In this document: positions 5,023-55,040 of the stretch, one piece after another
Numbering within the stretch: position 1 is the stretch's first letter
Layout of the letters: each line of letters begins with the position of its first letter
Source: Candidatus Staskawiczbacteria bacterium RIFCSPLOWO2_01_FULL_33_13
GTDB taxonomy: Bacteria; Patescibacteriota; Minisyncoccia; Minisyncoccales; Staskawiczbacteraceae
Direction of reading: 5' to 3'
Assembly (NCBI GenBank): GCA_001820215.1
Contig: MHOW01000006.1
Span: 47,039-111,038, forward strand
Length of the DNA: 64,000 bases
Translations under genes and position numbers: made by a program
Notes under the pieces: generated by a model
Seen by the model: only the letters and a program-made list of their open reading frames with translations
Database searches by the model: none
Told to the model about the DNA's origin: nothing

Positions 5023-5063
5023 TGCAGATTTAAGATTTATGATTTAAGATTTACTAATCTATT

Positions 5064-6496: not shown

Positions 6497-7363
6497 ATGA
6501 TTATTGATACTCATAGCCACCTACAATTTAACGCCTATAAGGACGATGTGAATGAAGTAACAAAAAGAACCCAATCTAAAAATATTTGGTGTATTAATGT
6601 TGGGACCAACTATCCGTCAAGCAAAGACGGGATTTTATTTGCCGAAAAACACGGGGAAAGTTTTTTTTCAGCTATTGGCTTGCATCCGATGTATGCAGGC
6701 GCTGAATTTTTAAAAATCAAAAATGATGATAATGAAAGCAAGGAATTAGTTGAAGAAAATACTTTTGACACTCAAAAATACAGGGAATTGGCTCAATCAA
6801 AAAAAGTAGTGGCGATTGGCGAAATTGGACTAGATTATTACTACAAGCCGAAAACTGCCACGAAGTTAGCGGAGTTTAAAGAGAAACAAAAACAAATTTT
6901 TTTGCAACAACTAGATTTGGCAAAAGAATTAAATCTGCCCGTTATTTTACATTGCCGAATGGCGCACGAAGACATTTTAGAAATTCTTAAATCATATATC
7001 GTAAATCATAAATCAATGAATGGAGTGATTCATTGTTTTACGGGCACAATTGAGCAGGCAAAAAAATATATTGACCTTGGATTTAGTATTGGTATTAATG
7101 GAATTATTTTTAAGTTTAATATAGATGAAGTAATTAAAAATATTTCATTAAGCAACATGCTTCTTGAAACTGATTGCCCGTATTTAACCCCCCTGCCCGC
7201 TGTAGCTTTAGCGAAAGCGGGGCCTGATAGCCACATAAGAAACGAACCGATTTTTATAAAACACACTATCCAAAAAATCGCAGATTTAAAGGGAATTACT
7301 TTTGAGGAGGTTTGCAATAAAACTACTCAAAATGCTAAAAGATTATTCACCCTGGTTAAATAA
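6497..7363 (+). CDS. tatD: TatD family hydrolase
   Basis: N-terminal IDTHSHL. Conserved His and Asp residues characteristic of TatD. Confidence 0.8.
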   Translation: MIIDTHSHLQFNAYKDDVNEVTKRTQSKNIWCINVGTNYPSSKDGILFAEKHGESFFSAIGLHPMYAGAEFLKIKNDDNESKELVEENTFDTQKYRELAQSKKVVAIGEIGLDYYYKPKTATKLAEFKEKQKQIFLQQLDLAKELNLPVILHCRMAHEDILEILKSYIVNHKSMNGVIHCFTGTIEQAKKYIDLGFSIGINGIIFKFNIDEVIKNISLSNMLLETDCPYLTPLPAVALAKAGPDSHIRNEPIFIKHTIQKIADLKGITFEEVCNKTTQNAKRLFTLVK

Positions 7364-7440: not shown

Positions 7441-7468
7441 AAAAAGCGGTTAAAATCGCTTTTTTTTG
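7441..7468 (+). terminator. terminator-like hairpin after tatD
   Basis: Stem aaaaagcgg ttaaaat ccgcttttttt followed by a T-run. Confidence 0.4.
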
Positions 7469-7500
7469 TGTATAAATTATGATATGATACTTAAAAATAT

Positions 7501-23477: not shown

Positions 23478-25445
23478 ATGAAATTCCAACTAATATCCAA
23501 ATTTACGCCTAAAGGCGACCAGCCGCAGGCAATTAAAAAACTGACCGAAAACTTAAAATCTGGCAAAAATCACCAGGTTCTTTTAGGTGTTACGGGTTCT
23601 GGTAAAACATTTACTATGGCTTCTGTAATTGAAAAATGCCAAAAACCAACGCTAATCATTTCGCCAAATAAAACACTTGCGGCCCAACTTTACCAAGAAT
23701 TTAAAGAATTTTTTCCCAATAATGCGGTTCATTATTTTGTTTCTTACTATGATTATTACCAGCCCGAAGCCTATATTCCCCAAACAAACACTTATATAGA
23801 AAAAGATGCAAAAATAAACCAAGAAATAGACCGACTAAGGCATTCTGCGGTGCAAGATATTGTTTCGCGCAAAGATGTAATTGTGATAGCTTCAGTATCT
23901 TGCATTTATAACATTGGATCTCCTGTAAATTACCAATCAGTTTCGCTAATCATAAAAGCAAAACAGAAAATAAAACGCAAAGATTTTATTTTGCATCTTA
24001 TTGCATTGCAATACAAAAGAAATGATATTGAGGCAAAACCAGGATCATTCCGTGTGCGTGGGGATACTATTGAAATATATCTTGTAACAGGAGAAAAAAT
24101 ATTAAAAGTAGAATTTTCTAACAATGGCATAGAAAAAATCCTTGAATCTCCTGCCGGCGTAAATACCAAATACCAAATACTTAATACTAAATACACAATC
24201 TTCCCCGCCACATTCTGGGTAGCTCCAGAGAGTAAGATAAATATTGCGCTTGAAAATATCAAATTAGAATTACAGGAAAGATTAAAAGTGTTAAAAAAAC
24301 AAAATAAATTAGTTGAATATCAAAGATTAGAAGAAAAAACAAACTACGACTTAGAAATGTTGAAAGAAAATAATTGGTGCCAAGGCATAGAAAATTATTC
24401 AAGCCAGTTAGAATTTAGAAAACCAGGCTCGGCTCCCTTTTCACTTGTTGATTATTTTAACCATTTTAACCCTTCGGCAAGCTCAGGGCAGGTTCCCTCT
24501 GATTTTTTAATATTCATTGATGAATCACACATTTCTATTCCCCAAATAAGAGCAATGGCAATTGGAGACAAAATAAGAAAAGAAACGCTGATTAATTACG
24601 GATTTAGGCTTCCGTCTGCTCTAGATAATCGCCCATTAAAATTTCAAGAGTTTCAAGAACGCCAAAAACAAACAGTATATGTTTCGGCAACTCCGGCTGA
24701 CTACGAAAAAGAAAAATCGAGTAGTGACATTGTAGAACAATTAGTAAGGCCTACGGGATTGTTAGAACCATCAATAAAAATTAAAAAAACTGAAAACCAA
24801 ATAAAAGATTTAATAGAAGAGATAAAAAAAGAAGTTGCAAAAAACCATAGAGTTTTGGTAGTAACCTTAACAAAAAGATTGGCAGAAGAAATTTCAGACT
24901 ACTTAGCCGATAAAGAAATTAAAGCTCAATATATGCATTCCGAAATAAAAACAATGGAGCGACCAGAAATTTTAAAAAATTTCAGAGAAGGAAAGTTTGA
25001 TGTGTTAGTAGGAATTAACCTTTTAAGAGAGGGTTTAGACTTGCCCGAAGTAGCCCTAGTTGCTATTTTAGATGCTGATAAAGAGGGTTTTTTAAGAAAT
25101 AAAACAACTTTAATACAAGCTATGGGTAGAGCCGCCCGGCACATACAGGGGCGCATTATTTTATACGCCGATAAAACCACTTTCTCAATGCAAGAAGCCA
25201 TAGATGAAATTAATAGAAGAAGAAAAATACAAGAAAATTACAATAAAAAACACGGCATTACCCCCACGGCAATTATAAAAAATATTAAAAACTGGAGCCT
25301 GTCAAAAAAAGAAGATACTCTTTCTGAATTTTGGATGATCAATGATAAAAAATTACTAGAAAAAGAAATGAAACTTGCCGCCAAAAATATGGATTTTGAA
25401 AGAGCCGCAGAACTTCGTGATTTAATTGAAAAATTAAAAAAATAA
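23478..25445 (+). CDS. uvrB: excinuclease ABC subunit B
   Basis: FTPKGDQPQAI...GVTGSGKT helicase motifs. C-terminal UVR domain (ERAAELRD). Start moved to MKFQLIS because the ORF-track start lies inside the MITE. Confidence 0.9.
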   Translation: MKFQLISKFTPKGDQPQAIKKLTENLKSGKNHQVLLGVTGSGKTFTMASVIEKCQKPTLIISPNKTLAAQLYQEFKEFFPNNAVHYFVSYYDYYQPEAYIPQTNTYIEKDAKINQEIDRLRHSAVQDIVSRKDVIVIASVSCIYNIGSPVNYQSVSLIIKAKQKIKRKDFILHLIALQYKRNDIEAKPGSFRVRGDTIEIYLVTGEKILKVEFSNNGIEKILESPAGVNTKYQILNTKYTIFPATFWVAPESKINIALENIKLELQERLKVLKKQNKLVEYQRLEEKTNYDLEMLKENNWCQGIENYSSQLEFRKPGSAPFSLVDYFNHFNPSASSGQVPSDFLIFIDESHISIPQIRAMAIGDKIRKETLINYGFRLPSALDNRPLKFQEFQERQKQTVYVSATPADYEKEKSSSDIVEQLVRPTGLLEPSIKIKKTENQIKDLIEEIKKEVAKNHRVLVVTLTKRLAEEISDYLADKEIKAQYMHSEIKTMERPEILKNFREGKFDVLVGINLLREGLDLPEVALVAILDADKEGFLRNKTTLIQAMGRAARHIQGRIILYADKTTFSMQEAIDEINRRRKIQENYNKKHGITPTAIIKNIKNWSLSKKEDTLSEFWMINDKKLLEKEMKLAAKNMDFERAAELRDLIEKLKK

Positions 25446-29024: not shown

Positions 29025-29285
29025 ATGGCAATCATAAAATCAGCTAAAAAAGCTATCAGACAAAATAAAAAAAATAGGATTCACAATCTTATTTATATCA
29101 ACAAAATAAAAAGCCTTGTAAAAGAAACTAAGTCTTTAGTTTTACAAAAGAAAAATAAAGAGGCAAAAGAGCTGTTGCCTAAAGTATATGAGGCTTTAGA
29201 TAAAGCAGCAAAGATTGGAGTTATTAAAAAAAATAATGCTTCAAGAAGGAAGTCTCGAATGGCTAAAGCCATAGGGCGACTCTAA
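29025..29285 (+). CDS. rpsT: 30S ribosomal protein S20
   Basis: MAIIKSAKKAIRQNKKNR... Basic, 86 aa, typical S20. Confidence 0.85.
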   Translation: MAIIKSAKKAIRQNKKNRIHNLIYINKIKSLVKETKSLVLQKKNKEAKELLPKVYEALDKAAKIGVIKKNNASRRKSRMAKAIGRL

Positions 29286-29324
29286 TTTATAAATCACACA
29301 CTAATATACTAATTAAAAGAGTTA

Positions 29325-29723
29325 TTAATCTAAATTAATAACTCTTTTTGGTTTTAAATAGGTGCTACGAAAATTGACTATTAAACCAAGATGTAATTTC
29401 GAAAATTTTAAATATCTTATCATTTGAAAATAATCTTCTTTTGTAATAAATTTTTTAGACTTTATATCAAGTAAAATCTTATCGTCAATACAAAAATCTA
29501 CTTTATTGCTTGCATCTTTTTTGTTAATAATTTCAATTGGTAATATTTTTTCTCTTTCAAAAAAAATATTAGCCTTTTTCAATTCTATTTCTAAAAGATC
29601 TCCGTATTGGATTTCTCTACAAAACCTACCTAACTTATTATGAACCTTAAATAAAACTCCAGAAATCTTATAAGATAGTTCCGGATGGATTAGTTCGATT
29701 TTATTAGTAAATTCGTGTGTCAT
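29325..29723 (-). CDS. GxxExxY family protein (PD-(D/E)xK-like fold)
   Basis: Pattern ...YGDLLEIELKK...IDDKILLDIKSKK...GLIVNF matches the GxxExxY family layout. Confidence 0.55.
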   Translation of the reverse strand: MTHEFTNKIELIHPELSYKISGVLFKVHNKLGRFCREIQYGDLLEIELKKANIFFEREKILPIEIINKKDASNKVDFCIDDKILLDIKSKKFITKEDYFQMIRYLKFSKLHLGLIVNFRSTYLKPKRVINLD

Positions 29724-29740
29724 TAGTAAATTGGTGTCGC

Positions 29741-30742
29741 CTAGATTTCTGATACCAGTAAATCCAGCGCTGTTTCCATTTCTATTTTTCCTGTTTTAAT
29801 ATCTAAGTCAGTTTGGTATATTTTTTTATATATTTTTTTTAATTCTTCGAATGAAAATTGATTGCATGTAAAATAATTCTTTTTGACTACAAAAGGGTGC
29901 AAACCACTTTTTTTTACAATAGAGGCATACATTAACCCCTGTTCTGATAACTCTTTTATTACAAGTAAATTTTTAAATTGATAAGCTATCATTGAAAAAA
30001 GATACAATGGATTATCTCCTCCATCAATGTGCTTATGCAATAAAGAAAGTGCCTGCGGTTTATTTTTTTGAGCTAAAGAATCAATGGTTTTAAAAATATC
30101 GGTTTCAATTTTTGGCTTTGTCAACAAAACCACATCTTCTTTTTTTACCACAAGCCCATTTTTAAAATTTGATAATTTTTTGATTTCACCTGAAAGCCTC
30201 CAAAGATCGTTGCCAACATATGACAAAAGCAAATCTAAGGCATCAACATTTACCCGATTAAATTGTCTCGCATCGCGAGACACCGTTTCGCTTTGCGAAA
30301 CGGATTTAACCGGGTGAATTTTTGTCTTATATTTTTCAAATTCTTTTACTGCCCACAACTTTACATTTTTATTATCTAATAATCCAAACTCTTGGCTTTT
30401 ACATTCTTTTATTAACACCTTAAATATTTTTAATCTTTGATCAACCGTTTCTGATTCGTACACCACAATAATATCCTTTAATGCCTGTAATTTTTTTATT
30501 TCACCCAAAAAGTTTTCTTGAAATTTTTTATTTGAAAAAACATTTTTTAAAATAATAAGCTTTGTTTCTCCAAACATTGAAGAAATAGTAAAATTGCCAT
30601 GAAATTCTAAAAAGTCGGCTTGGTTGGCATCCATATAAACCAAATTCAATCCGCTTTTGCGGATTTTTTTATAATGGTCAACTATTTCATCTAATTTCTC
30701 TTTTGACCTATATGAATCTTCACCATATAAAAATATAATCAT
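29741..30742 (-). CDS. holA: DNA polymerase III delta subunit
   Basis: N-terminus MIIFLYGEDSY is typical of HolA. Start trimmed from the ORF-track 30841 to the third Met. Contains a 39-bp GC-rich double hairpin in frame. Confidence 0.6.
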   Translation of the reverse strand: MIIFLYGEDSYRSKEKLDEIVDHYKKIRKSGLNLVYMDANQADFLEFHGNFTISSMFGETKLIILKNVFSNKKFQENFLGEIKKLQALKDIIVVYESETVDQRLKIFKVLIKECKSQEFGLLDNKNVKLWAVKEFEKYKTKIHPVKSVSQSETVSRDARQFNRVNVDALDLLLSYVGNDLWRLSGEIKKLSNFKNGLVVKKEDVVLLTKPKIETDIFKTIDSLAQKNKPQALSLLHKHIDGGDNPLYLFSMIAYQFKNLLVIKELSEQGLMYASIVKKSGLHPFVVKKNYFTCNQFSFEELKKIYKKIYQTDLDIKTGKIEMETALDLLVSEI

Positions 30743-35424: not shown

Positions 35425-35916
35425 TTATTTATCCATTGTCAGTTCTCTTTTATTTTCGCCCTGAGTGGAGTCAAAAGATTCTTTTGAGCGTTTGAATTTA
35501 ATTACTATTGCATTTTTAAGCATTATTTTTTTTATTTTCTCTGGCCATTCAATGGCAACTATATTTTCTGGATTTAAAATAATTTCCCTAAAACCTAAAT
35601 CTAAAATCTCTTCAGGCTTGTTTAATCTATAACAATCAATGTGGTAGAAAAAATTGAAGCTTGAAGCTTGAAGTTTCAAGCTTGAAGTTGGAATCTTAAA
35701 TTTTTTCATAATAACAAAGGTTGGACTATTTACTTTTTCTTTAATACCTAAACCTTTTGCAAATCCTTGCAAAAAGGTTGTTTTTCCGGCGCCAAGCTCT
35801 CCCTGTAAACCTAAAACTGTCGCAATGTTACCTAAATTTTGCTTTAAAATTTGTTTTGCCAAATTTTCCCCTATTTTTTGTGTCTGTTGAAAATTATAAG
35901 TGGTATTTTTTTTCAT
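35425..35916 (-). CDS. tsaE: tRNA t6A biosynthesis ATPase TsaE
   Basis: Walker A GELGAGKTTF. Conserved SPTF and Y..HIDCYRL motifs. Carries an in-frame heptamer repeat. Confidence 0.8.
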   Translation of the reverse strand: MKKNTTYNFQQTQKIGENLAKQILKQNLGNIATVLGLQGELGAGKTTFLQGFAKGLGIKEKVNSPTFVIMKKFKIPTSSLKLQASSFNFFYHIDCYRLNKPEEILDLGFREIILNPENIVAIEWPEKIKKIMLKNAIVIKFKRSKESFDSTQGENKRELTMDK

Positions 35917-42329: not shown

Positions 42330-42345
42330 TAAATCTACATAGCCC

Positions 42346-42373
42346 TTGACAATAGTTTGTGAAAAAATATAAT
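42346..42373 (+). promoter_or_regulatory. near-consensus sigma70 promoter
   Basis: TTGACA, 16-nt spacer, TATAAT. Followed by a leader full of 7-bp tandem repeats. Confidence 0.45.
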
Positions 42374-42503
42374 AGGAACAAGATAATAAAATAATTATCA
42401 ATTATCAAATTATCAATTATCAATCAAACTTTAATTAACTAATTATCAATGACAAAATTATCGTTGATAATTAACAAATTGAAAATTCATTGAAAATTGG
42501 TCA

Positions 42504-42686
42504 TTGAAAATTGAAAATTCATTAAAAACTATGGAGGAGGATTTTTTAAATAATCTTATAAGCCAATCTGATGATACTGACGATGATAGTGTTGTATCAG
42601 ATATAGATGACGAAGAAGGTGAAGACGAGAAAGACCCAGATGCAGAAGACGATGACGACCAAACACCTGTTGAAGAGGAAGAATAA
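42504..42686 (+). CDS. hypothetical hyper-acidic small protein (60 aa)
   Basis: About 50% Asp/Glu (DDTDDDSVVSDIDDEEGEDEKDPDAEDDDDQTPVEEEE). Flanked by a strong promoter and terminator. Confidence 0.4.
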   Translation: MKIENSLKTMEEDFLNNLISQSDDTDDDSVVSDIDDEEGEDEKDPDAEDDDDQTPVEEEE

Positions 42687-42700
42687 TATTGATTATTATA

Positions 42701-42731
42701 AAAAAACAGCCCATCGGGGGCTGTTTTTTTA
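42701..42731 (+). terminator. Rho-independent terminator
   Basis: aaaaaacagcccatcgggggctgttttttt. Confidence 0.7.
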
Positions 42732-42742
42732 TTACGAATTAC

Positions 42743-42923
42743 CTTAAATTACGAAATGATTTTTAGTTATTTATTAGGGAATTTTGTTTCTGGTGAAGGA
42801 AAAATATAAAAAGGTAACTACGCTTACCTTTTTACATTTTTACAAAGCCAGAGACAAAATTAACAATAAATAGCAAAAACTTGCATTTTCTATGGTCATT
42901 TCGTAATTTAAGGTATTATGCAT
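42743..42923. repeat. MITE family 1 copy (divergent interior)
   Basis: Terminal repeats cttaaattacgaaatga / tcatttcgtaatttaagg. Confidence 0.5.
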
Positions 42924-42954
42924 AATAAGTACTTTAAAGTATAATAAGTAAAAT

Positions 42955-45255: not shown

Positions 45256-46380
45256 TTATATAGACTTAATGGGCATCGCTACATATACATAACTAGAATC
45301 TCCAACTGGCTTTAAAATACATGGCCCCTCTTCTTTGCTTATATTAAATGCAACTTCTGAACTTTTAATATTTGAAAGCCCTTCTATTAAGTAGCGATAA
45401 TTAAACGAAACCTCTATTGCGTCTCCTTCAATTTTTGCTTGCACACTTGACCTATTTTCTCCAATATCGGTGTTTTTGGCAAAAATTTCTACCTCTTTTT
45501 TCTCTGGTTTAACTGAAAGCCTAACTTCATTAGTTTTATTTGAAAATAACGAAGCCGTTTTTATTTGATTTAAAAATTCATCTTTTTTTAATACGATATT
45601 TGTTTTAAATTTATTAGGAATAATTTCTTGATAATTAGGATATTCCCCCTCAATTAAACGAGAAATAATTTGCACCTGAGGATGTTTTATCTCTTCCATA
45701 GGAAATTCAAACAATGCTTGATTGCCAGAAAAGTATATTTTTAACACGCCTTCTTTATCTTCTAAAATACTCATAATTTCTCTTGAGGGCCTTTGGGGTA
45801 AAATAAATGAATACTCTTTTTTTACAGGACTTTCTAATACTATATTTTTTTCTGCTAACCTAAAACTATCTGTTGCAACGATTTTAATATTATTTTTATT
45901 AAAATTAAAATAAATACCAGATATTTCGGGTCTTGATTGTGATGGCATTGCAATATCAATTACCTGTGAAAGACCTTGGCAAAATTTCTTATTATCAACT
46001 TCTAAATATTCTAAATTTGAAAACTCAGGTATTATAGGAAATTCTTCAGGATTATATCCTTGTATTTGGGTTTTAAAATTACTGCATTCAATATAGAGAT
46101 TTTGACTTTTTTCTTCAATAGTAATTTTTTCGTTTGGCAAAGAAGAAACATAATTAGAAAGGAATTTTGCAGGAATTACCACTTTACCTTTTTTAATAAT
46201 TTTAGTTAAAATCCATAACTTAATAGTAGTTTCTAAATTAGTAGAAATTAAATTTAAAAAACTATCTTCGGTAGTTATTAAAATATTATCTAAAATAGGC
46301 AAAGATATATTTTTACCAATAATTCTTTCGGTAATATTAAGCCCCTTTTTTAAATTTTCCTTTAAGATTTCTATTTTCAT
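45256..46380 (-). CDS. dnaN: DNA polymerase III beta subunit (sliding clamp)
   Basis: MKIEILKENLKKGL... Three-domain length. Immediately downstream of dnaA. Confidence 0.85.
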   Translation of the reverse strand: MKIEILKENLKKGLNITERIIGKNISLPILDNILITTEDSFLNLISTNLETTIKLWILTKIIKKGKVVIPAKFLSNYVSSLPNEKITIEEKSQNLYIECSNFKTQIQGYNPEEFPIIPEFSNLEYLEVDNKKFCQGLSQVIDIAMPSQSRPEISGIYFNFNKNNIKIVATDSFRLAEKNIVLESPVKKEYSFILPQRPSREIMSILEDKEGVLKIYFSGNQALFEFPMEEIKHPQVQIISRLIEGEYPNYQEIIPNKFKTNIVLKKDEFLNQIKTASLFSNKTNEVRLSVKPEKKEVEIFAKNTDIGENRSSVQAKIEGDAIEVSFNYRYLIEGLSNIKSSEVAFNISKEEGPCILKPVGDSSYVYVAMPIKSI

Positions 46381-46776
46381 AATAATATATAATATATTAA
46401 ATATCTTATTGTTATTAGGGTAGTGATTTTTGTTAATTTTTAAATTTTTATTATATTGTCGTATGTGTAAATTTTTAAAAAATAAACTGTGAATAAAATA
46501 GTCTAAAAATATATTAATAAAATATGTGAATTATTTTTATAATTTTTTATAGATAGTTTGTTATGTGTTTTATCCACCATATATTCTATTTTTTTAATTA
46601 CTTTGAATTACGAAATGCTTTCTAGGTATTTTTTTCAAATTTTAGAATGAAAATTTGATAGAATTATTTTACCTAGTAAGCTAGGTAAAATAATTATAGC
46701 GGGTTTTCAACTAAAATTTGGAGAAAAGACCAGAAATTTGCTTTCCAAAGGGCATTTCGTAATTCAAAGTAATATT
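46381..46776. other. oriC-like AT-rich region with DnaA-box-like 9-mers
   Basis: Very AT-rich stretch 46381-46560. ttatccacc at 46570-46578 and ttatccact at 46777-46785. MITE copy embedded. Confidence 0.4.
46602..46769. repeat. MITE family 1 copy
   Basis: Terminal repeats tttgaattacgaaatgc / gcatttcgtaattcaaag. Internal hairpin tacctagtaagctaggta. Lacks the GC hairpin of copy 19435. Confidence 0.6.
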
Positions 46777-48132
46777 TTATCCACTATACACTTTTTGTTT
46801 TATAAGGTTTAATTCTTCTGTTAATTTATTATTTTCTTCACTTTCTTGTAGTATTTTTTTGTATGCGTATATGACTGTAGTATGATCCTTGCCCCCAAAT
46901 TTTCTTGCAATTGCAGGAAATGAATATTTTAATTCTTTTCTTAATAAAAACATTGCTATTTGTCTTGGTCTTACAATTTCTTTGCGTCTTGTTTGGTCAA
47001 AAAGATTTTTTTCATCTAAATTATAAAATTTAGCAACCGTTTCAATTATTTTTTTATAGTTTGCAACATCAAAGGGAGAAAATACAAAACCTCGTAATAG
47101 CTTTTTTGCAACTTCTAAATTCAACACATTGTTGTTGATTTTATGGTAAATTAATAAGCTATTTAAGGCTCCCTCTAAATCTCTGATATTCTTTTTAACA
47201 TTTGAGGCGATGTATTCTAAAATATCTTCTGGTAATTCCATATTTTTCTCTTGAAGTTTGGTTTTAAGTATTACAAGCCTTGTTTCATAATCAGGTAGGC
47301 TTACATCAATAGTCATCCCGCCTCCAAATCTTGATTTAAGCCTTTCTTCTAACTCTGATATGGCATTGGGGGGCCTGTCAGACGAAAGGATGATTTGTTT
47401 ATTTTTTTCATATAAAGAATTAAACACATGAAAAAATTCTTCTTGGCTTTTGTTTTTTCCCGATATAAATTGTATATCATCAATAATGAGCACATCTATA
47501 GGGGTAAAACTAGCCTTAAAGCTTTCCATGCTATTGCTCCTAATAGCTGAAACAATATTAGAAACAAGTTTTTCAGAAGGAATATATTTTACTTTATTTT
47601 TTTTATTATTACTGGCTATTTTATTCCCAATTGACTGCATTAAATGGGTTTTGCCTAATCCAACTCCTCCATATATAAATAAGGGGTTGTAGGTGTGTCC
47701 TGGGTTTTCAGATACTGCTAAAGCTGCCGCGTGAGCCAATTCATTAAATCCACCTACTACAAAATTTTCAAAGGTATAACGAGGGTTAAGATTTGTTTCT
47801 TTGTTAATTTTAAACTCATCAAATTTTAACTGTTCTATATTTATATCACTTTCTAGTTTTTCTTTTGTTTCAAAGTTTTTTGATGGTTGTGGGTTAATTT
47901 TAAATTCTAATTCTTTGATAGTGTTGTCTATGTCATGCATTGTTTTAAGTATTAACTTGTAATACTTATTATTCAGCCACTCTTTAGAAAAGGCATTTGG
48001 AACCGAAATTACTATTTTTCCATTTTCTTTAGATGTTATTTCAGTGTTTTGAAACCAGGTTGCAAAATTTGCCTTAGAAATAAAAAGTTGCATTTGCGCC
48101 AAAACTGATTGCCAAAGCTCACTATTGTCCAT
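46777..48132 (-). CDS. dnaA: chromosomal replication initiator DnaA
   Basis: AAA+ Walker A GGVGLGKTHL. C-terminal DnaA-box-binding domain. Confidence 0.9.
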   Translation of the reverse strand: MDNSELWQSVLAQMQLFISKANFATWFQNTEITSKENGKIVISVPNAFSKEWLNNKYYKLILKTMHDIDNTIKELEFKINPQPSKNFETKEKLESDINIEQLKFDEFKINKETNLNPRYTFENFVVGGFNELAHAAALAVSENPGHTYNPLFIYGGVGLGKTHLMQSIGNKIASNNKKNKVKYIPSEKLVSNIVSAIRSNSMESFKASFTPIDVLIIDDIQFISGKNKSQEEFFHVFNSLYEKNKQIILSSDRPPNAISELEERLKSRFGGGMTIDVSLPDYETRLVILKTKLQEKNMELPEDILEYIASNVKKNIRDLEGALNSLLIYHKINNNVLNLEVAKKLLRGFVFSPFDVANYKKIIETVAKFYNLDEKNLFDQTRRKEIVRPRQIAMFLLRKELKYSFPAIARKFGGKDHTTVIYAYKKILQESEENNKLTEELNLIKQKVYSG

Positions 48133-48222
48133 AATTTTTTGATTAAATATTTAATAGTCTATTTTTTCTTTTTGTTGTTTATTTGTCAAATATAAACAAA
48201 ATATACACATATGTTATTAAGT

Positions 48223-48231
48223 TGTGGATAA
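48223..48231 (-). promoter_or_regulatory. perfect DnaA box (TTATCCACA on the minus strand)
   Basis: tgtggataa, 90 bp upstream of dnaA. Confidence 0.45.
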
Positions 48232-48440
48232 ATTGTGTGATATTTTAAATACAGACGCACAATATATTTAATTAGAAATTTTAAATTTGTAATTAAAACG
48301 CTATTTGACCAAATGTGTTTTTTTTGGTAAGTTAACAATATTATCCTTGAGTTATAAAATACTTTCACAGTCTTTTTATAGAGTATTTGGTGATTTAAGG
48401 ATTTATACTACACTATACAATATTATTAATATAAAAAACA

Positions 48441-48575
48441 ATGAGTTTCACTTATAACCCAAAAAAGAAAAAGAGAAAAAGAACACACGGTTTCTTAAAG
48501 AGAAGCCAAACAAAAAAGGGTCAACAGGTTATTCAAAGGAGAAGGGCTAAGGGAAGGAAGAAATTAAGCGTGTAA
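48441..48575 (+). CDS. rpmH: 50S ribosomal protein L34
   Basis: [44 protein letters not shown] (44 aa). Not in the ORF track because it is under 60 aa. Canonical position before rnpA. Confidence 0.8.
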
Positions 48576-48638
48576 TGAGCTGGTTACAAAACTCCATATT
48601 TATCCTCAAAAGCGAGTTTTGTAACCATCTCAACTTAA

Positions 48639-48980
48639 GTGTTGCCAAAAATAAACAGGTTAACCAAAAAAAAAGATTTTGACTCGGTTTTTAAGAAAGG
48701 AAAAAGCATAAAAGTTGATTTTTTAATATTTAAAATATTAAAAAATGATCTAAAAGAAAGCCGTTTCGGTTTTGTGGTTAGTAAAACTATTTCTAAAAAA
48801 GCTGTTATAAGAAATAAAGTTAAAAGAAGGCTGCGAGAGGCAGTTTTTAAAGGATTAAAAAATCAGGTTACTAATACGGCTAAACCATCAGATATTGTTA
48901 TTATAACTTTGCCAGGAATTGAGAAAAGAGAATTTTTGCAACTACAAGAAGTTGTCGATAAATTTTTAAATAAAATATAA
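48639..48980 (+). CDS. rnpA: ribonuclease P protein component
   Basis: LPKINRLTKKKDFDSVF. Basic, 113 aa. Position rpmH-rnpA-yidC. Confidence 0.75.
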   Translation: MLPKINRLTKKKDFDSVFKKGKSIKVDFLIFKILKNDLKESRFGFVVSKTISKKAVIRNKVKRRLREAVFKGLKNQVTNTAKPSDIVIITLPGIEKREFLQLQEVVDKFLNKI

Positions 48981-48994
48981 TAATTTTTTACACT

Positions 48995-49723
48995 ATGTTT
49001 GGTTTTTTAGTAGATGTCTTTAATATTCTTTTATACCAGCCTCTTTTTAATGCATTGGTGTTAATTTATAATTATCTGCCTGGGCATGATTTTGGTATTG
49101 CAATTATCCTTCTTACAATCATTATAAGAGTTATTATTTATCCCCTTTCGGTAAAATCCCTTAACTCACAAAAAAATCTTCAAAAACTGCAACCACAATT
49201 ACAGGAAATACAAAAAAAATATAAAAATGATAAAGAAAAACAAGCTAGGGAAACCCTAGAACTTTATCGTAAAGAAAAAATAAATCCATTTAGCGGATTG
49301 TTTTTAGCATTGATTCAGCTCCCTATTTTAATTGCATTATATAGTGTGTTTAATAATGGATTAAAATCTATAGAGCTTAATAATTTGTATAGTTTTGTAT
49401 CAAATCCAGTTAATATTAACCCAATATTCTTGGGTGCTATAAATTTATCTTTGCCAAATTTATTTTTTGCCTTCCTTGCGGGTATTGTTCAATTTTTTCA
49501 AACAAAAATGATTATGCCTAAATTGGATAAAAATCAGGCAAAAGAAAATCAAATGACCGCCATGATGCAAAAACAAATGGTTTATTTTTTTCCTTTTATA
49601 ACAGTAATAATCCTTTTAAAATTACCCTCAGCTTTAGGCCTTTACTGGATTGCAAGCGGATTGTTTTCTATAGCACAACAGTATTTTATTCTTAAAGATA
49701 AACCAAATAAGCCTTCTTTGTAA
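48995..49723 (+). CDS. yidC: membrane protein insertase YidC (short form)
   Basis: Five-TM Oxa1-like core. IIIRVIIYPL motif region. Confidence 0.8.
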   Translation: MFGFLVDVFNILLYQPLFNALVLIYNYLPGHDFGIAIILLTIIIRVIIYPLSVKSLNSQKNLQKLQPQLQEIQKKYKNDKEKQARETLELYRKEKINPFSGLFLALIQLPILIALYSVFNNGLKSIELNNLYSFVSNPVNINPIFLGAINLSLPNLFFAFLAGIVQFFQTKMIMPKLDKNQAKENQMTAMMQKQMVYFFPFITVIILLKLPSALGLYWIASGLFSIAQQYFILKDKPNKPSL

Positions 49724-49737
49724 GTCTATTAATAAAA

Positions 49738-50271
49738 ATGGAAGAACAAGATTTAGTAATAATTAAAAAAACTATTGAAGAGTTGTTTGAAAAAATGACT
49801 GTTGTGGTTAGTAGTTTGGAATTAAAGCAAAGCTCTCAAGAAAAAAAAACCGAAAATTTTGATTCGCTTAATAGTATCAATGAAACTGTTTTACCTTTAC
49901 AAAGCGAACCTAGAGAAATAATTCACATAAATATAAATTTAGAAGAACCTCAATTTTTAATAGGCCAGAATGGCCAGACTTTATTTGAACTAGAGCGTAT
50001 TGTAAAGATAATATTAAATAAAAAAATCCAAAAGTTTTTTTATTTGAATTTAGATATTAATAATTATAAAGACAAAAAAGTTGAATATTTAAAAAACTTA
50101 GCAAGGGATTCAGCCAACGAAGTTGCGTTAACTAAACAAGAAAAAGCGTTAAGTCCTATGTTAGCTTATGAAAGAAGAATTATTCATACCGAATTAGCTC
50201 AAAGACAAGATGTTATTACAAGGAGCCAGGGCAATGGAGAAAATAGATGCGTGGTAATATGCCCTCGCTAA
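49738..50271 (+). CDS. jag: Jag/KhpB-like RNA-binding protein (KH + R3H)
   Basis: C-terminal R3H YERRIIHTELA. Follows yidC as in many bacteria. Confidence 0.7.
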   Translation: MEEQDLVIIKKTIEELFEKMTVVVSSLELKQSSQEKKTENFDSLNSINETVLPLQSEPREIIHININLEEPQFLIGQNGQTLFELERIVKIILNKKIQKFFYLNLDINNYKDKKVEYLKNLARDSANEVALTKQEKALSPMLAYERRIIHTELAQRQDVITRSQGNGENRCVVICPR

Positions 50272-52030: not shown

Positions 52031-53824
52031 TTATTTTAATTTTCTTCTTGCTTCTTTTATTTTTTCAACTTCTTGGGGGCTGGTAGTTATTATTTGATCT
52101 TCTGTATAGCTGGCTTTTATATTAATATATACATGTTTTTTACCCGCAAAAAACAACCCTTCTCCAACAGGAGCACTTAATAATAATTCTTCTTCTTGCT
52201 TGGTTAAATCAAATATTTTTTCTAATACATCAATAGCCGCAGTGGATTGTTTTAACAGCATTTGCAAAGATGAATTGGTGATAATAGCCTTTCCATAACC
52301 TGAACCCATAAAATCTTCCACATCTTGGGTAATAGTGGTTACTCCCATCCAGTATTTTCTGCATCTTTTTATTAAGCTGAATAAAAATGAAGCTCCGTCT
52401 TCTGATTGCATCAGCCACCAAGCCTCATCAACCACTAAAATTCTCTTTTTTATTTTTGTTCTTACAATATTCCATATGTATCGCATTACAATAAACAAAG
52501 CAATGGGTTTTAAAGATTCTTCCATGTCTCTTATTCCAAATACAATGAATTTTTTATCAATAGTAATATTAGATTTTTGGTTAAAAAATCCAGCAAAAGT
52601 CCCTTCGGTAAATTTTTTAAGGCGTCTTGCTAAAGATTCTGCTCCTTCCATATTTTCTAAAATTTCTCCAAAATCAGACATTAGTGGTATTTTTTCCTCC
52701 CAGGTAGCAGGGTCACTTTGAGGTGTAATATCTCTTATTGCGTAAGTTTCTGTGAGGGCTTGGTCTAAAATACTATCTTCTTCAGCAGTTAATCCTCCAA
52801 GCATTATTCTTAAAAGTCCCACCAAATTTATAATATTTGACCTTAGTATGTCTTCTGGATTATCATCTGGGCCTGGGGTAGGAAGGTCAAAAGGATTTAC
52901 ATGGTTTCCAGAAGACAAAGATATTTTAAAGAAATTACCCCCTATGCCATCGGCTAAAAATTCATATTCATTTTCGGGGTCAATTACAATTACATCAATA
53001 TCCATCATCAAGTATCTTAAAATTTCTAATTTAACCGCGTATGATTTACCCGATCCGGATTTTGCAAAAACAACCATATTGGCGTTTTCTAAGGTGAACC
53101 TATCAAACAATACAAGTGAATTATTGTGCCGGTTAATGCCATATAAAATTCCTTCATTAGAGCTTAAGTCAAAAGAAACAAATGGAAACGCAGTTGAAAG
53201 CGGCTCTGTGTTCATTGGAACATTAATGCCAATTAAGTCCATTCCATAAGGGCTGGCTGAAATAAAGCCTTCTTTTTGCTTAAATAAAGCTGGTTTTATA
53301 TAAATTAAACGAGGTTCAAAAATTGACCTTAGGGTAGTTTCAACTTCACGCATTTCTTCTTCTGAATTTTGATATACGGTAATATAAAGCCCAAATCTAA
53401 ACATTTTTTCTTGGGCGGTTATTATTTTATCTCTAAGGTTTTCAATATCTTGGTAGCCGGTTTCAAGAGCTGGATCGCGAATGAGTCCCTTTTCTTGTCT
53501 TTCCATTAATTCTGAAGATACTTGGGTAACTTTTGACCGTAATTTTTTTAAAATTAATTCACTGCTTACCGGATGTATAAAAAAAGATATATCCATTGGT
53601 ACATTTAGGTTTATTGCGGGAGAAAGCCAGCCGGTATTTAAATATCTTGGATAAGAAAATATAAAAAAAGATTTGGCGATTTTTTCTCCAAGCTTTATAT
53701 AGTTTTGATTTATGCCAACATAAGAAGGCGCTATAACATCCTTTATATTAAGAATTTCTTCTTGAAATATTTTATCATCAATATCAATATTTCTTTTATT
53801 TTTATTTAAAAAATTAAAATTCAC
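52031..53824 (-). CDS. VirB4/TrbE/CagE-family conjugal-transfer-type ATPase
   Basis: Walker A FAKSGSGKSYA. DPENEY and VVDEAW (Walker B) motifs. Confidence 0.8.
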   Translation of the reverse strand: MNFNFLNKNKRNIDIDDKIFQEEILNIKDVIAPSYVGINQNYIKLGEKIAKSFFIFSYPRYLNTGWLSPAINLNVPMDISFFIHPVSSELILKKLRSKVTQVSSELMERQEKGLIRDPALETGYQDIENLRDKIITAQEKMFRFGLYITVYQNSEEEMREVETTLRSIFEPRLIYIKPALFKQKEGFISASPYGMDLIGINVPMNTEPLSTAFPFVSFDLSSNEGILYGINRHNNSLVLFDRFTLENANMVVFAKSGSGKSYAVKLEILRYLMMDIDVIVIDPENEYEFLADGIGGNFFKISLSSGNHVNPFDLPTPGPDDNPEDILRSNIINLVGLLRIMLGGLTAEEDSILDQALTETYAIRDITPQSDPATWEEKIPLMSDFGEILENMEGAESLARRLKKFTEGTFAGFFNQKSNITIDKKFIVFGIRDMEESLKPIALFIVMRYIWNIVRTKIKKRILVVDEAWWLMQSEDGASFLFSLIKRCRKYWMGVTTITQDVEDFMGSGYGKAIITNSSLQMLLKQSTAAIDVLEKIFDLTKQEEELLLSAPVGEGLFFAGKKHVYINIKASYTEDQIITTSPQEVEKIKEARRKLK

Positions 53825-53860
53825 TTTAGTATTTTTTTAATATTATTAAAAAATTAATTT

Positions 53861-53895
53861 CAAAATTCAAAAACCTAAATTCTAAACAAATTCAA
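53861..53895. repeat. left arm of 34-bp inverted repeat bracketing the four-helix-bundle ORF
   Basis: caaaattcaaaaacctaaattctaaacaaattcaa. Confidence 0.65.
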
Positions 53896-53931
53896 AATCC
53901 AAATTTTCTAAATCCAAAACTATTTAATATT

Positions 53932-54294
53932 TTATTTACTATTCTCTAAAATAGATCCAAATATTTTCATTAGTTCAATGCATTCTTTAATGAGCGATTC
54001 TTTGTCTTGTTGATTTTCTTTTAATGGTTCAGATAAATTTAACCACAACCTGCTTTCTTTAGATTCTTTTCTGCAAATCTTTATTCTCATTAGAAAGTCT
54101 TTTTTGCCTAGAGATTCATTTGCTTCAATATAATTGGCTGCCTGTGAACCGGAGGATCTAACGAGTTGTTTTCCGTATTCTATATTTGAAATTGTTCTGA
54201 GAAGAGCCTTAACATACTCTCTTGTTTTTTGAGCAAATAGATAAGTTCTATCTTCTAAATCATATTGCGGTTTTGAATTTTGGATTTCATTCAT
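53932..54294 (-). CDS. four-helix-bundle protein (23S rRNA intervening-sequence protein family)
   Basis: ...YLFAQKTREYVKALLRTISN...QLVRSSGSQAANYIEANESLGKKDFLMRIKICRKESKESRLWL matches the four-helix-bundle pattern. Confidence 0.6.
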   Translation of the reverse strand: MNEIQNSKPQYDLEDRTYLFAQKTREYVKALLRTISNIEYGKQLVRSSGSQAANYIEANESLGKKDFLMRIKICRKESKESRLWLNLSEPLKENQQDKESLIKECIELMKIFGSILENSK

Positions 54295-54328
54295 TTGAAT
54301 TTGTTTAGGATTTAGGTTTTTGAATTTT
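54295..54328. repeat. right arm of inverted repeat (33/34 match to the left arm)
   Basis: ttgaatttgtttaggatttaggtttttgaatttt. Its reverse complement equals the left arm with 1 mismatch. Confidence 0.65.
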
Positions 54329-54361
54329 GGATTTTTGTTGAAATAAATTTCAAATTAGGAT

Positions 54362-55024
54362 TTATTTCAATAATTCCGGTGATATTTTTGGCGAATAACC
54401 TATTTCAGCTTCGTTAGGGTGGTGTATAGTCCAAAATAGTTCAATTAATTCGGGGGTGGTTAAGGGTATTACATCTAAACCACATCTTTTTAATCCCATT
54501 GCTAAAAATTCCATTCTTTGCCAAAGTTGATTTTTTGATTTTTCAAAGTCATCATCTTTAAATTGTTGAATTTTAGCTTTATCTTTACTAAATAAATTCA
54601 AAAAATTAAATTGTTTTGTAACGCCCCCTACACCGAATATTTCCACTAAACTGTAAGGGACTACCACATAAAAATTCTTTGTCATAATTGAGTCCCCTTG
54701 CACCAATTCTTTTATGAATTCCCGATAAGAACCCGTTTGGGCTTTTAGTAATTCATTATCCTGTTTTTCTTCTAAATTTTTAATGCTATCCAAATATGGG
54801 GTGATATTTATCTTTCTTGATTGAATGATAATTTGGCATGAAAAATCTAATGAATTTAAAAAGCTTTGAAAAGAATAAATAATGGCGTTTTGTTCGTCGT
54901 CTGATTTTAATGCAAAATTCATAGAGGAAACCATTAGTACTCCCCTTATATTATTATTTTTTAAAATCAAAACACCTTCTTTAATGTCTTGAATTTCTAA
55001 AAATTCTTGTGTCGTAATGTTCAT
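54362..55024 (-). CDS. hypothetical protein in the T4SS-like cluster
   Basis: No TM, no clear motif. Confidence 0.3.
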   Translation of the reverse strand: MNITTQEFLEIQDIKEGVLILKNNNIRGVLMVSSMNFALKSDDEQNAIIYSFQSFLNSLDFSCQIIIQSRKINITPYLDSIKNLEEKQDNELLKAQTGSYREFIKELVQGDSIMTKNFYVVVPYSLVEIFGVGGVTKQFNFLNLFSKDKAKIQQFKDDDFEKSKNQLWQRMEFLAMGLKRCGLDVIPLTTPELIELFWTIHHPNEAEIGYSPKISPELLK

Positions 55025-55040
55025 AATTGTAAATATAAAA

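What the first reader, a model, noticed from the sequence alone, without database searches (positions are those of the whole stretch)
53861..54328. rRNA-intervening-sequence-like cassette (four-helix-bundle ORF bracketed by 34-bp inverted repeat) inside the T4SS-like operon
A 120-aa ORF with the four-helix-bundle / 23S-rRNA-IVS protein pattern sits between the VirB4-like gene and the next cluster gene. It is bracketed by a near-perfect inverted repeat (33/34 match): 53861-53895 against the reverse complement of 54295-54328.

In 23S rRNA, this same architecture (long stem enclosing a four-helix-bundle ORF) is an intervening sequence that RNase III excises. Here it lies in a protein-coding operon. 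If transcribed with the operon, the roughly 470-nt stem-loop would be an RNase III substrate that could split or regulate the polycistronic mRNA. Alternatively it is a mobile IVS-type cassette that has jumped out of rRNA. The repeat arms consist of the same AAATTC/AAATCC-type AT-rich heptamer units seen as in-frame repeats in leuS.
Basis: partly seen in the sequence, partly recalled or inferred. Interest (0 to 1): 0.68.

Follow-up and report, generated by a model that had tools for sequence, protein, structure and literature searches.

The report
Mobile heptamer-armed gene cassette in an operon
The flagged stem-plus-small-gene is real and is one copy of a widespread, apparently undescribed mobile cassette, built like the intervening sequences of 23S rRNA, that inserts between genes of ordinary operons in many bacterial phyla and may explain the unexplained excess of 7-base repeats in bacterial genomes.

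Summary
A 120-aa four-helix-bundle ORF (TIGR02436/PF05635) is bracketed by 41-nt inverted arms (38/41), co-directional between the TraC-like and VirB4-like genes.

It is not a local oddity. About 80 relatives from more than 10 phyla share the plan: a 5' arm of ~7-nt units (AAATCCT type) ending at the ATG, the ORF, then the inverse arm.

- **Discrete unit:** close pairs in unrelated flanks delimit a ~470-490-bp unit.
- **Empty sites:** sister lineages have empty junctions (TAA + 1-16 nt + ATG), or different cassettes at other junctions (four-helix-bundle or GxxExxY ORFs, each with its own heptamer).
- **Context:** none of the relatives checked is in rRNA. The upstream gene is co-directional in 69/72 and host genes are arbitrary.
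- **Selection:** the ORF is under purifying selection. The arms are sequence-conserved and co-vary by unit subtype, but show no G.U bias.
- **Cultured organisms:** Nostoc plasmids and Xanthomonas (Xcc0516, between accB and accC, arms = GGGAATC repeats) show the same plan.

Best reading: a mobile IVS-type cassette riding host transcription. RNase III cutting is plausible by precedent but untested here. How it moves is unknown.

The parts
54335..54361 (-). Outer-left 27 nt between the TraC-like stop codon (54362-54364) and the 5' arm. It starts with an AAATCCT unit that overlaps the stop (TAAATCCTAA) and is probably part of the insert.
   Evidence: Empty junctions in relatives are only TAA + 1-16 nt + ATG, so this stretch is extra.
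54294..54334 (-). 5' arm on the sense strand: AAATCCAAAATTCAAAAACCTAAATCCTAAACAAATTCAA-A. It is an array of ~7-nt units that ends at the A of the start codon.
   Evidence: The family consensus is AAATcCt AAattCt AAAtcCT AAATtCT AAAcAAATTCAA ATG, with a sharp boundary at about -43 and period-7 autocorrelation of 0.47 against 0.26 in controls.
53932..54294 (-). 120-aa four-helix-bundle ORF (TIGR02436 / PF05635).
   Evidence: Purifying selection: closest pairs have dN/dS of 0.07-0.34, and the median pN is 0.26 against pS 0.84.
53897..53931 (-). Spacer between the ORF stop and the 3' arm. It holds further degenerate units (…TTTGGATTTAGAAAATTTGGATTT on the sense strand).
   Evidence: pairs I2, I3. 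TRF reports a period-7 array over 53859-53919.
53856..53896 (-). 3' arm, the inverse complement of the 5' arm (38/41).
53825..53855 (-). Outer-right 31 nt up to the VirB4-like GTG (53822-53824). The last bases (ACTAAA) resemble the native spacer seen in empty sites (L096: TAA ACTAATA ATG).

Best explanation
Window 53825-54361 is an inserted copy of a small mobile cassette of the same design as ORF-bearing rRNA intervening sequences.

Shown:
- It is a discrete unit of about 480 bp: a 5' array of lineage-specific heptamers ending at the ATG, a 120-aa four-helix-bundle gene, and the inverse array.
- It occurs with unrelated flanks in many phyla.
- It is absent from the same gene junction in sister lineages.
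- It has ORF-less miniatures.
- It shares its plan with parallel cassettes that carry a GxxExxY (PD-(D/E)XK-fold) gene instead.
- It sits directly behind the stop codon of the TraC-like gene, in the sense orientation, as family members almost always do.

Inferred:
- It has no promoter of its own and is expressed by read-through from the host operon.
- In that transcript the arms pair into a duplex of about 40 bp that hides the start codon. By analogy with IVSs and with the H. influenzae hmw heptamer hairpin, RNase III cuts this duplex. That would release or inactivate the cassette mRNA and separate the TraC-like and VirB4-like halves of the operon message (my estimate for this step is about 0.5).
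- The heptamers are conserved in sequence per lineage, change together in both arms, and follow the protein tree. The most likely reader of the arms is therefore the cassette's own protein. Its solved relatives (2RLD, 2GSC, Avd) have five chains each, and the Xanthomonas one is reported as a homopentameric ring. The protein would act either in spreading the cassette or in controlling its own expression (about 0.4).

How the DNA moves is not known.
For: 1. Anatomy and chance.
2. Family.
3. Conserved gene-plus-arms unit in 74 of 81 copies from 80 species-representative genomes, with IR score at least 13 against 8 +/- 1.3 for shuffles.
4. Unit boundaries from six close pairs with unrelated flanks: a 470-492-bp block at 85-92% identity, running from 43-58 nt before the ATG to 64-87 nt after the stop.
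5. Empty versus filled junctions. Most TraC-like/VirB4-like relatives have gaps of -19 to +30 nt. The near clade has 430-580-nt inserts at either junction, carrying TIGR02436 or TIGR04256 ORFs, all on the operon strand, each with its own heptamer arms. Some are decayed.
6. The upstream gene is co-directional in 69/72, and the upstream stop lies 36-50 nt before the ATG in 31/76.
7. Host genes are arbitrary: 138 Pfam families over 68 genes. The nearest relatives sit in other operons.
8. The ORF is under purifying selection. Arm identity is 0.58 against 0.26 for control flanks while synonymous sites are saturated. Own arms share the unit subtype in 73% of cases against 42% after permutation. The subtype follows the protein tree, 78% against 43%.
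9. ORF-less miniature at L085:6595-6745.
10. Same plan in cultured organisms: Nostoc pNFSY05 (perfect 31-nt arms) and Xanthomonas accB-[Xcc0516]-accC with GGGAATC arms.
11. Precedents for RNase III: PMC4990558 and PMC12721329.
Against: - There is no direct evidence of transcription, cleavage or translation for this locus.
- Arm mismatches across the family show no preference for G.U on the sense strand (135 vs 157 A.C). In the window, two of the three mismatches are C.A on the sense RNA, and the antisense strand folds slightly better.
- An element's own arms are only modestly more complementary to each other than to the arms of other elements (median 20 vs 17).
- No target-site duplication or target motif was seen, so no transposition chemistry can be named.
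- All ten assemblies of this species carry the cassette at the same site, so there is no within-species empty site for this copy.
- The one within-species polymorphism (the GxxExxY cassette in L004) sits at a recombination breakpoint. It may have arrived by allele replacement, not by insertion.
- The Anabaena cylindrica copy is antisense to its neighbours.
- Phylum labels of some MAGs may be wrong.
Confidence: 0.7

Rival explanations
1. MITE-like DNA transposon. The arms are terminal inverted repeats read at the DNA level by a transposase or recombinase encoded elsewhere. The small ORF is cargo or an addiction-type passenger. Any RNA stem is a by-product.
For: - No wobble bias in arm mismatches.
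- Arms are conserved in sequence, not merely in pairing.
- ORF-less miniatures exist.
- Two unrelated ORF families occupy the same kind of frame.
- Cassette GC is below host GC.
Against: - No target-site duplication was seen.
- There is a 96% sense-orientation bias relative to the upstream gene, although an inverted repeat would fold the same way in either orientation.
- The inner end of the 5' arm coincides with the start codon (median distance -1).
- The ORF is under purifying selection across phyla.
- The heptamer type tracks the ORF lineage, which a shared trans-acting transposase would not require.
- No transposase lies nearby.
Confidence: 0.2
2. Homing-type spread. The cassette gene product promotes a break or recombination at empty alleles, and the cassette is copied in with flanking DNA, as with free-standing homing endonuclease genes in phage operons.
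For: - In L004 the extra GxxExxY cassette lies exactly at the boundary between a 99.9% and an 89.9% identity tract, as co-conversion would give.
- GxxExxY has a PD-(D/E)XK nuclease fold (PMC3424549).
- Cassettes are variably present between conserved genes.
Against: - The four-helix-bundle protein has no nuclease motif or fold.
- Homing cannot explain copies in unrelated flanks.
- There is only one such breakpoint, and the contig ends before the tract can be bounded.
Confidence: 0.07
3. Resident operon feature. The small protein is an accessory component of this T4SS-like or pilus machine, and the stem evolved in place to set the ratio of upstream to downstream gene products.
For: - The site is the same in all ten assemblies of the species.
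- The closest genome relative (L011, 74%) also follows a T4SS-pilin-domain gene.
- Several cassettes cluster in this operon type.
Against: - Orthologous junctions are empty in most relatives.
- The same cassette lineage sits behind aconitase-family, ATP synthase, PheS, cytochrome bd and glycosyltransferase genes and others.
- In sister operons the junction holds unrelated cassettes, including a different protein family.
Confidence: 0.02
4. Accessory protein (Avd) of a diversity-generating retroelement.
For: The fold is the same as Avd (4DWL, 8UB7; TM about 0.6-0.69). A sister-cassette protein gives a weak hit to NF033474 (E = 4e-4, far below cutoff).
Against: - No reverse transcriptase lies within 10 kb.
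- The window ORF has no Avd-model hit.
- Contexts are arbitrary operons.
Confidence: 0.01

Closest known systems
ORF-bearing intervening sequences (IVS) of 23S rRNA (Leptospira, Coxiella; 'S23p' ORF)
   Same: - A unit of about 430-480 nt.
- Terminal inverted repeats forming a long stem.
- An internal ~120-aa four-helix-bundle ORF of the same Pfam family, in the sense orientation.
- Tandem heptamers directly upstream of the start codon inside the stem, and a poor Shine-Dalgarno sequence (PMC4990558).
- Both ORF-bearing and ORF-less forms exist.
   Different: - It lies in a protein-coding operon, not in an rRNA helix.
- The heptamer sequence differs (AAATCCT type against GACAGAT).
- The ORF here is under clear purifying selection, whereas the Coxiella ORF is reported as decaying.
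- RNase III excision has been shown for IVSs but not tested here.
Cyanobacterial STRR repeats and Xanthomonas GGGAATC heptamer repeats
   Same: - Arrays of about four 7-nt units.
- Mostly intergenic, between co-oriented genes.
- Often in convergent pairs able to form hairpins.
- Transcribed, with function stated as unknown (PMC2670836; PMC4692102).

I find that such arrays are the arms of four-helix-bundle cassettes in Nostoc and Xanthomonas.
   Different: Those reports treat the repeats as simple-sequence or G-quadruplex elements and do not link them to a gene. Whether most published arrays are arms or remnants of cassettes is not tested.
REPIN-RAYT systems
   Same: A small gene flanked by its own cognate repeats in inverted orientation, plus ORF-less hairpin copies dispersed in intergenic DNA (from my own knowledge of that literature).
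   Different: The gene here is a four-helix-bundle or PD-(D/E)XK protein, not an HUH/Y1 transposase. Many ORF-bearing copies exist across genomes. The arms are tandem heptamers, not a single palindrome.
H. influenzae hmw 5'-UTR heptamer hairpin
   Same: A heptamer array forms one arm of a long mRNA hairpin that RNase III processes, with effects on expression of the downstream gene (PMC12721329).
   Different: There is no enclosed ORF, the other arm is not an inverse array, it is not mobile, and it is phase-variable.
DGR accessory protein Avd
   Same: The same four-helix-bundle fold. Avd is deposited with five chains and, in 8UB7, as part of a reverse transcriptase-RNA ribonucleoprotein.
   Different: There is no reverse transcriptase and no template or variable repeats nearby, and no hit to the Avd model.

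Membership tests
23S/16S rRNA intervening sequence (IVS) | Inserted in an rRNA gene helix | tested here: not met
   Rfam finds only a tRNA in the window. nhmmer with E. coli 16S and 23S finds nothing in the window or in 80 related loci. Rfam on 20 of those loci finds no rRNA.
23S/16S rRNA intervening sequence (IVS) | Terminal inverted repeats forming a long stem around the insert | tested here: met
   41-nt arms, 38/41. The arms form a terminal stem in the MFE and centroid folds, z = -4.5.
23S/16S rRNA intervening sequence (IVS) | Internal 23S_rRNA_IVP / four-helix-bundle ORF (ORF-bearing subclass), with heptamer repeats before the start codon | tested here: met
   compared with PMC4990558.
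23S/16S rRNA intervening sequence (IVS) | Excised from the transcript by RNase III without religation | not testable with these tools
   No RNA data are available. A regex for the RNase III signature found no rnc gene in these 64 kb, which says nothing about the rest of the genome.
TIGR02436 / PF05635 four-helix-bundle protein family | HMM score above the curated cutoffs | tested here: met
   57.9 bits against a cutoff of 24, and 36.6 bits against 33.8.
TIGR02436 / PF05635 four-helix-bundle protein family | Four-helix-bundle fold like 2RLD and 2GSC | tested here: met
   AlphaFold model with helices 13-30, 35-49, 64-87 and 92-119. Foldseek match to 2RLD with E = 7e-4 and TM 0.68-0.75.
Diversity-generating retroelement (Avd component) | Adjacent reverse transcriptase with template and variable repeats | tested here: not met
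   No RT family appears among the genes within +/-10 kb. No match to NF033474.
MITE / TIR transposon | Terminal inverted repeats at the element ends | tested here: met
MITE / TIR transposon | Target-site duplication flanking the element | tested here: inconclusive
   None is visible at six pairs of boundaries or at the window junction. No truly isogenic filled/empty pair was available.
MITE / TIR transposon | No coding capacity; mobilised by a related autonomous element | tested here: not met
   The element carries a conserved ORF under purifying selection. ORF-less derivatives do exist.
Integron gene cassette | A single attC palindrome at the 3' end, arrays next to an integrase | tested here: not met
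   The two arms flank the ORF and are inverse copies of each other. No integrase is nearby.
Free-standing homing endonuclease gene | Encodes a nuclease; variably present between conserved genes | tested here: inconclusive
   Variable presence is met. The window ORF has no nuclease domain. Sister cassettes carry a PD-(D/E)XK-fold GxxExxY protein.

The most novel reading that the evidence does not exclude
Heptamer-armed cassettes may form one large, unrecognised superfamily of mobile elements that ride host transcripts.

On this reading:
- ORF-bearing rRNA IVSs are merely the copies that landed in rRNA.
- Cyanobacterial STRR hairpins and the Xanthomonas GGGAATC inverted pairs are the arms or ORF-less remnants of such cassettes.
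- Their activity accounts for the long-noted excess of heptameric repeats in bacterial genomes.
- That includes arrays fixed in frame inside proteins, such as the LeuRS loops here.

The cassette protein would be the element's own factor that reads its lineage-specific heptamers. That protein is either a four-helix-bundle protein, whose solved relatives are deposited with five chains (one reported as a homopentameric ring), or a PD-(D/E)XK protein.
Probability: 0.35. Interest if true: 0.85.

Novelty: new variant of a known kind. Interest (0 to 1): 0.72.

Why it matters
- **IVS origin.** rRNA intervening sequences have been called selfish elements of unclear origin and function since 1990. The same design turns out to be a discrete, horizontally moving unit that sits inside ordinary operons (T4SS-like, accBC, ATP synthase and others) in many phyla. 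That reframes IVSs as a special case.
- **Tractable test systems.** Xanthomonas accB-Xcc0516-accC and Nostoc plasmids are tractable, and a crystal structure is already available.
- **A common cause.** The result offers one candidate explanation for three separately reported, unexplained repeat phenomena: STRR, GGGAATC arrays, and the general excess of heptamer repeats.
- **Effects on host operons.** If the arms are cut by RNase III, such cassettes would be a widespread way in which operon mRNAs get split.
- **Annotation.** Thousands of 'four helix bundle protein' and 'GxxExxY protein' genes would be recognised as parts of elements, not as host genes.

Tried and rejected
- **Chance repeat in AT-rich DNA.** Rejected by shuffles.
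- **Other copies in the window.** There is no second copy of this arm pair and no paralogue of the ORF. A cassette of the sister type (GxxExxY) was found.
- **DGR/Avd.** No reverse transcriptase nearby.
- **Defence system.** PADLOC gives no hit for the ORF and only a noise-level hit for GxxExxY.
- **Virus or phage carriage.** There is no relative in IMG/VR by pattern plus tblastn or in INPHARED phages. Plasmids carry only distant cyanobacterial and Bernardetia copies.
- **Own promoter or terminator.** Promoter-like and terminator-like sites around the cassette are not above shuffle expectation.
- **Selected sense-RNA helix.** A G.U-versus-A.C test showed no bias. An own-versus-other arm complementarity test showed only a modest excess.
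- **Target motif or target-site duplication.** None seen.
- **Strain-level covariation.** Impossible, because all ten assemblies are more than 99.6% identical.
- **dN/dS.** A first ungapped estimate was wrong because of indel register. It was redone on a codon alignment.
- **RNase III gene in the window.** A regex found none, which is uninformative for the genome.
- **Literature.** Searches on TIGR02436, PF05635, GxxExxY, IVS, heptamer, STRR and CPR found no description of the cassette outside rRNA. Only open-access text was searchable, and the family curators' own notes were not available, so prior description cannot be excluded.
Full report
**1. The observation**

The arms at 53856-53896 and 54294-54334 are 41 nt, 93% complementary and 397 nt apart. 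The central 35-mer occurs only at these two places in the window, with none expected in shuffles.

The enclosed ORF (53932-54294, minus strand, 120 aa) passes the curated cutoffs of TIGR02436 (57.9 bits against 24) and Pfam 23S_rRNA_IVP (36.6 against 33.8). Its AlphaFold model is a four-helix bundle. The best solved matches are the 'S23 family' proteins 2RLD and 2GSC, followed by DGR Avd.

The ORF is on the same strand as its neighbours. These run: a 1169-aa protein, a 183-aa protein, a PrgI-like 148-aa protein, a TraC-like 220-aa protein, the cassette, a VirB4-like 597-aa protein, and a 539-aa protein.

As RNA, the 511 nt fold with the arms as a terminal stem (-101.1 kcal/mol, z = -4.5). The antisense strand does the same, as any inverted repeat would.

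The window has no rRNA gene. The organism is a groundwater Patescibacteria (CPR) bacterium. The identical protein is found at the identical site in GCA_000989665.1, GCA_001820135.1 and several metagenomes, all more than 99.6% identical over the cassette.

**2. A conserved unit found in many phyla**

A search with an alignment of homologues pulled 80 loci from species-representative genomes. Their labels include Patescibacteria, Omnitrophota, Planctomycetota, Desulfobacterota, Ignavibacteria, Chloroflexota, WOR-3, Nitrospirota, Verrucomicrobia and Bacteroidota, at 55-74% protein identity. Some MAG labels may be unreliable.

In 74 of 81 ORF copies, the 130 nt upstream align with the reverse complement of the 130 nt downstream well above shuffled controls. 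Anchored on the start codon, the upstream arm has a sharp outer boundary near -43. Its consensus is AAATcCt AAattCt AAAtcCT AAATtCT AAAcAAATTCAA ATG. Period-7 autocorrelation is 0.47 against 0.26 in control DNA.

The ORF is under purifying selection. The closest pairs have dN/dS of 0.07-0.34, and overall the median pN is 0.26 while pS is saturated at 0.84. Despite that saturation, 5' arms keep 58% pairwise identity against 26% for flanks further out.

**3. A discrete, inserted, mobile unit**

*Unit boundaries.* Six pairs of closely related copies lie in unrelated DNA: L063/L067, L054/L049, L054/L052, L063/L076, L067/L076 and L049/L052. Similarity starts 43-58 nt before the ATG, ends 64-87 nt after the stop, and covers 470-492 bp at 85-92% identity. 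In L085/L090 the cassette is 92% identical, while the surrounding homologous genes are about 70% identical and the cassette sits at a different junction.

*Empty sites.* I fetched 80 metagenomic relatives of the TraC-like gene. In most of them the PrgI-like/TraC-like and TraC-like/VirB4-like junctions are tight (-57 to +57 nt and -19 to +30 nt). At the nucleotide level they read TAA, then 1-16 nt, then ATG.

*Filled sites.* In the clade nearest the window, one or other junction holds a 426-583-nt insert. Each insert carries one ORF on the operon strand. [quoted passage not shown] Each insert is flanked by inverse arrays of its own ~7-nt unit: AAAATGN, AATTTGA, ATTACGA, ATCTTGT, TAGGATN, AATTATC, TTACTAA or CGCGGAA. 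Some copies are decayed: L096 is frameshifted, L103 is truncated, L105 has lost the ORF but kept the arms, and L111 is a 302-nt remnant. L096 carries an 80%-identical relative of the window's cassette at the neighbouring junction, while its TraC-like/VirB4-like junction is empty.

*ORF-less miniatures.* L085:6595-6745 joins a 5' arm (still ending in CAAATG) to a 3' arm after 16 nt.

*Composition.* Cassette ORFs are more AT-rich than their hosts (0.35 against 0.43-0.44).

In the window the insert follows the TraC-like stop directly. The stop overlaps a first AAATCCT unit, and a native-looking spacer survives before the VirB4-like GTG. I saw no target duplication or target motif.

**4. Where cassettes sit**

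None of the 80 related genome loci matches 16S or 23S rRNA (nhmmer), and a 20-locus subset has no Rfam rRNA hit.

The nearest upstream gene is on the same strand in 69 of 72 cases, and the nearest downstream gene in 61 of 72. In 31 of 76 cases the upstream stop codon is 36-50 nt before the ATG, which is at the edge of the arm.

Host genes are arbitrary. There are 138 Pfam families over 68 upstream genes, none occurring more than three times. Many are subunits of housekeeping operons. Relatives at 75-78% identity lie in a polysaccharide operon and in another secretion or pilus cluster.

An inverted repeat folds alike in either orientation. The orientation bias therefore argues that sense transcription of the ORF from the host promoter matters to the element. 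There is also no room for, and no excess of, promoter-like sites.

**5. What the arms are doing**

Three tests bear on this.

- *Wobble test.* Across 74 elements, arm mismatches are no more often G.U on the sense strand than A.C (135 against 157). A selected sense-RNA helix should show such a bias.
- *Own versus other arms.* An element's arms are only a little more complementary to each other than to the arms of other elements (median 20 against 17). Most of the 'inverted repeat' signal therefore comes from both arms keeping the lineage's unit sequence.
- *Covariation by subtype.* When the unit subtype changes (CT-, CG- or AC-AAA), both arms change together (73% agreement against 42% after permutation). 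The subtype follows the protein tree, not host GC (78% against 43%).

Different cassette lineages have quite different heptamers. This pattern fits sequence-specific recognition of the units by a lineage-specific factor. The cassette's own protein is the obvious candidate. Its solved relatives 2RLD and 2GSC have five chains each, the Xanthomonas protein is reported as a homopentameric toroid (PMC4990558), and Avd sits in the DGR reverse-transcriptase-RNA particle (8UB7). Simple co-inheritance of arms and gene cannot be excluded as the reason for the correlation.

Pairing is still likely to matter. The inner end of the 5' arm coincides with the start codon (median -1), which would hide the initiation site in the duplex.

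RNase III cutting has experimental precedent. It is shown for the Coxiella IVS, which has tandem GACAGAT heptamers before its ORF (PMC4990558). It is also shown for the H. influenzae hmw 5'-UTR, where a heptamer array forms one arm of an RNase III-processed hairpin (PMC12721329). Nothing here tests it for this locus.

**6. The same plan in cultured organisms**

- *Nostoc flagelliforme.* On plasmid pNFSY05, the annotated 'four helix bundle protein' gene is flanked by (AATTCAA)x4.4 and its exact inverse (31 nt, 100%, 433 nt apart). The first array abuts the upstream TAA, and the gene is co-directional with its neighbours.
- *Xanthomonas citri and X. campestris.* The orthologue of Xcc0516 (PDB 2GSC) lies between accB and accC. 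Its arms are GGGAATCGGGAGTGGAGAATGGGGAATCGG, starting 6 nt after the accB stop, and CCCACTCCCCATTCTCGACTCCCTATTCCC, ending at the accC ATG.
- *Link to published repeats.* These are the GGGAATC heptamer repeats described as enriched, mostly four units long, often in convergent pairs, mostly between co-oriented genes, transcribed and of unknown function (PMC4692102). That paper does not mention a gene between the pairs.
- *STRR.* Cyanobacterial STRR elements are likewise described as 7-bp repeats forming hairpins in operon junctions, with unknown function (PMC2670836).
- *CPR rRNA.* In CPR rRNA genes, 23S_rRNA_IVP ORFs have been reported at scattered insertion sites in both 16S and 23S (PMC11270868). 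This fits rRNA being one of many landing places.

**7. Comparison with known systems, and novelty**

In design this is an ORF-bearing IVS, but it fails the defining feature of lying in rRNA. It shares terminal repeats and ORF-less derivatives with MITEs, but it carries a conserved gene and shows no target duplication. It resembles REPIN-RAYT systems in having a gene flanked by its own inverted repeats, but the gene is not a transposase of a known type. It is not a DGR, an integron cassette or a known defence gene.

I found no description of this operon-embedded cassette class or of its arm grammar in the searchable literature. That library excludes most subscription papers and the family curators' notes, so prior description cannot be ruled out. 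I rate it a new variant of a known kind.

**8. Verdict**

The finding is real. The RNase III and operon-splitting idea remains a reasonable inference from precedent. The mechanism of movement and the role of the protein are open.

Noticed in passing
window 29275-29741 (- strand): A second cassette of the same class. A GxxExxY ORF (29325-29723, 132 aa) has 43-nt inverse arms at 29741-29699 and 29317-29275 (35/43; score 27 against 8.7 +/- 1.4 for shuffles). The 5' arm abuts the TAG stop of the upstream 366-aa gene. The RNA folds with a terminal stem (z = -5.3).
   Followed up: partly
window 42330-42954: A 625-nt intergenic region filled with ORF-less palindromes built from heptamers:
- AATTATC arrays with an inverted partner (48-nt arms at 42408-42455 and 42458-42505).
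- A perfect 20-nt inverted repeat containing ATTACGA (42740-42759 and 42896-42915).
- A 38-nt hairpin (42780-42861).

The same unit types form cassette arms in sister genomes.
   Followed up: partly
window 9018-9051 and 9416-9447 (leuS, 7466-9922): Two arm-type heptamer arrays are read in frame as GNSKFEIRNSK and KFQIPNSKSQI. In an alignment with 19 CPR LeuRS homologues, both fall in loops where most homologues are shorter or different. A few other lineages carry similar NxKxQ-type insertions.
   Followed up: partly
window 5026-5053, 6988-7015, 21244-21274, 21339-21369, 24161-24194, 35654-35687: Period 7 is the dominant tandem-repeat class: 10 arrays of 4-4.9 units against 0 in each of 10 Markov simulations. 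Apart from 5026-5053, which is intergenic, the arrays listed here lie inside ORFs, all but one with the A-rich AAAYNCN-like strand as the coding strand. The same dominance of period 7 is seen in 547 kb of other cassette-bearing genomes.
   Followed up: partly
L004:567-1149 compared with window 55025-55040: One strain has an extra GxxExxY cassette between the PrgI-like and TraC-like genes, where the window has 16 nt. Identity to the window is 99.9% over 11 kb on one side and 89.9% on the other, so the cassette marks a recombination breakpoint.
   Followed up: yes
L180 (Anabaena cylindrica pANACY.01) 1300-2080: A four-helix-bundle gene with nested (GTAAAAA)n arrays sits between cas2 and cas1 on the opposite strand. 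This is an exception to the usual sense orientation.
   Followed up: no
L016, L095, L103, L115, L119, L174: Several cassettes often lie within a few kb of each other, sometimes at successive junctions of one operon. T4SS-like or pilus-type operons of this CPR clade look like hot spots.
   Followed up: partly
window 54335-54373 and 53830-53856: Two small palindromes lie just outside the arms. One is a 14-nt stem spanning the TraC-like stop codon. The other is a 13-nt palindrome just before the VirB4-like start. They may be chance in AT-rich DNA or part of the insert.
   Followed up: no
window 45256-50271: The operon lies next to the dnaN and dnaA genes and the rnpA, yidC and R3H-protein genes, so it is close to the likely replication origin (Pfam table).
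   Followed up: no
P0121 (LeuRS homologue), N-terminus: The closest LeuRS homologue starts with GNHKLQITNHKEISNFKFQISN, which looks like another heptamer-encoded stretch. Many LeuRS hits are 340-400-aa 'partial' proteins.
   Followed up: no
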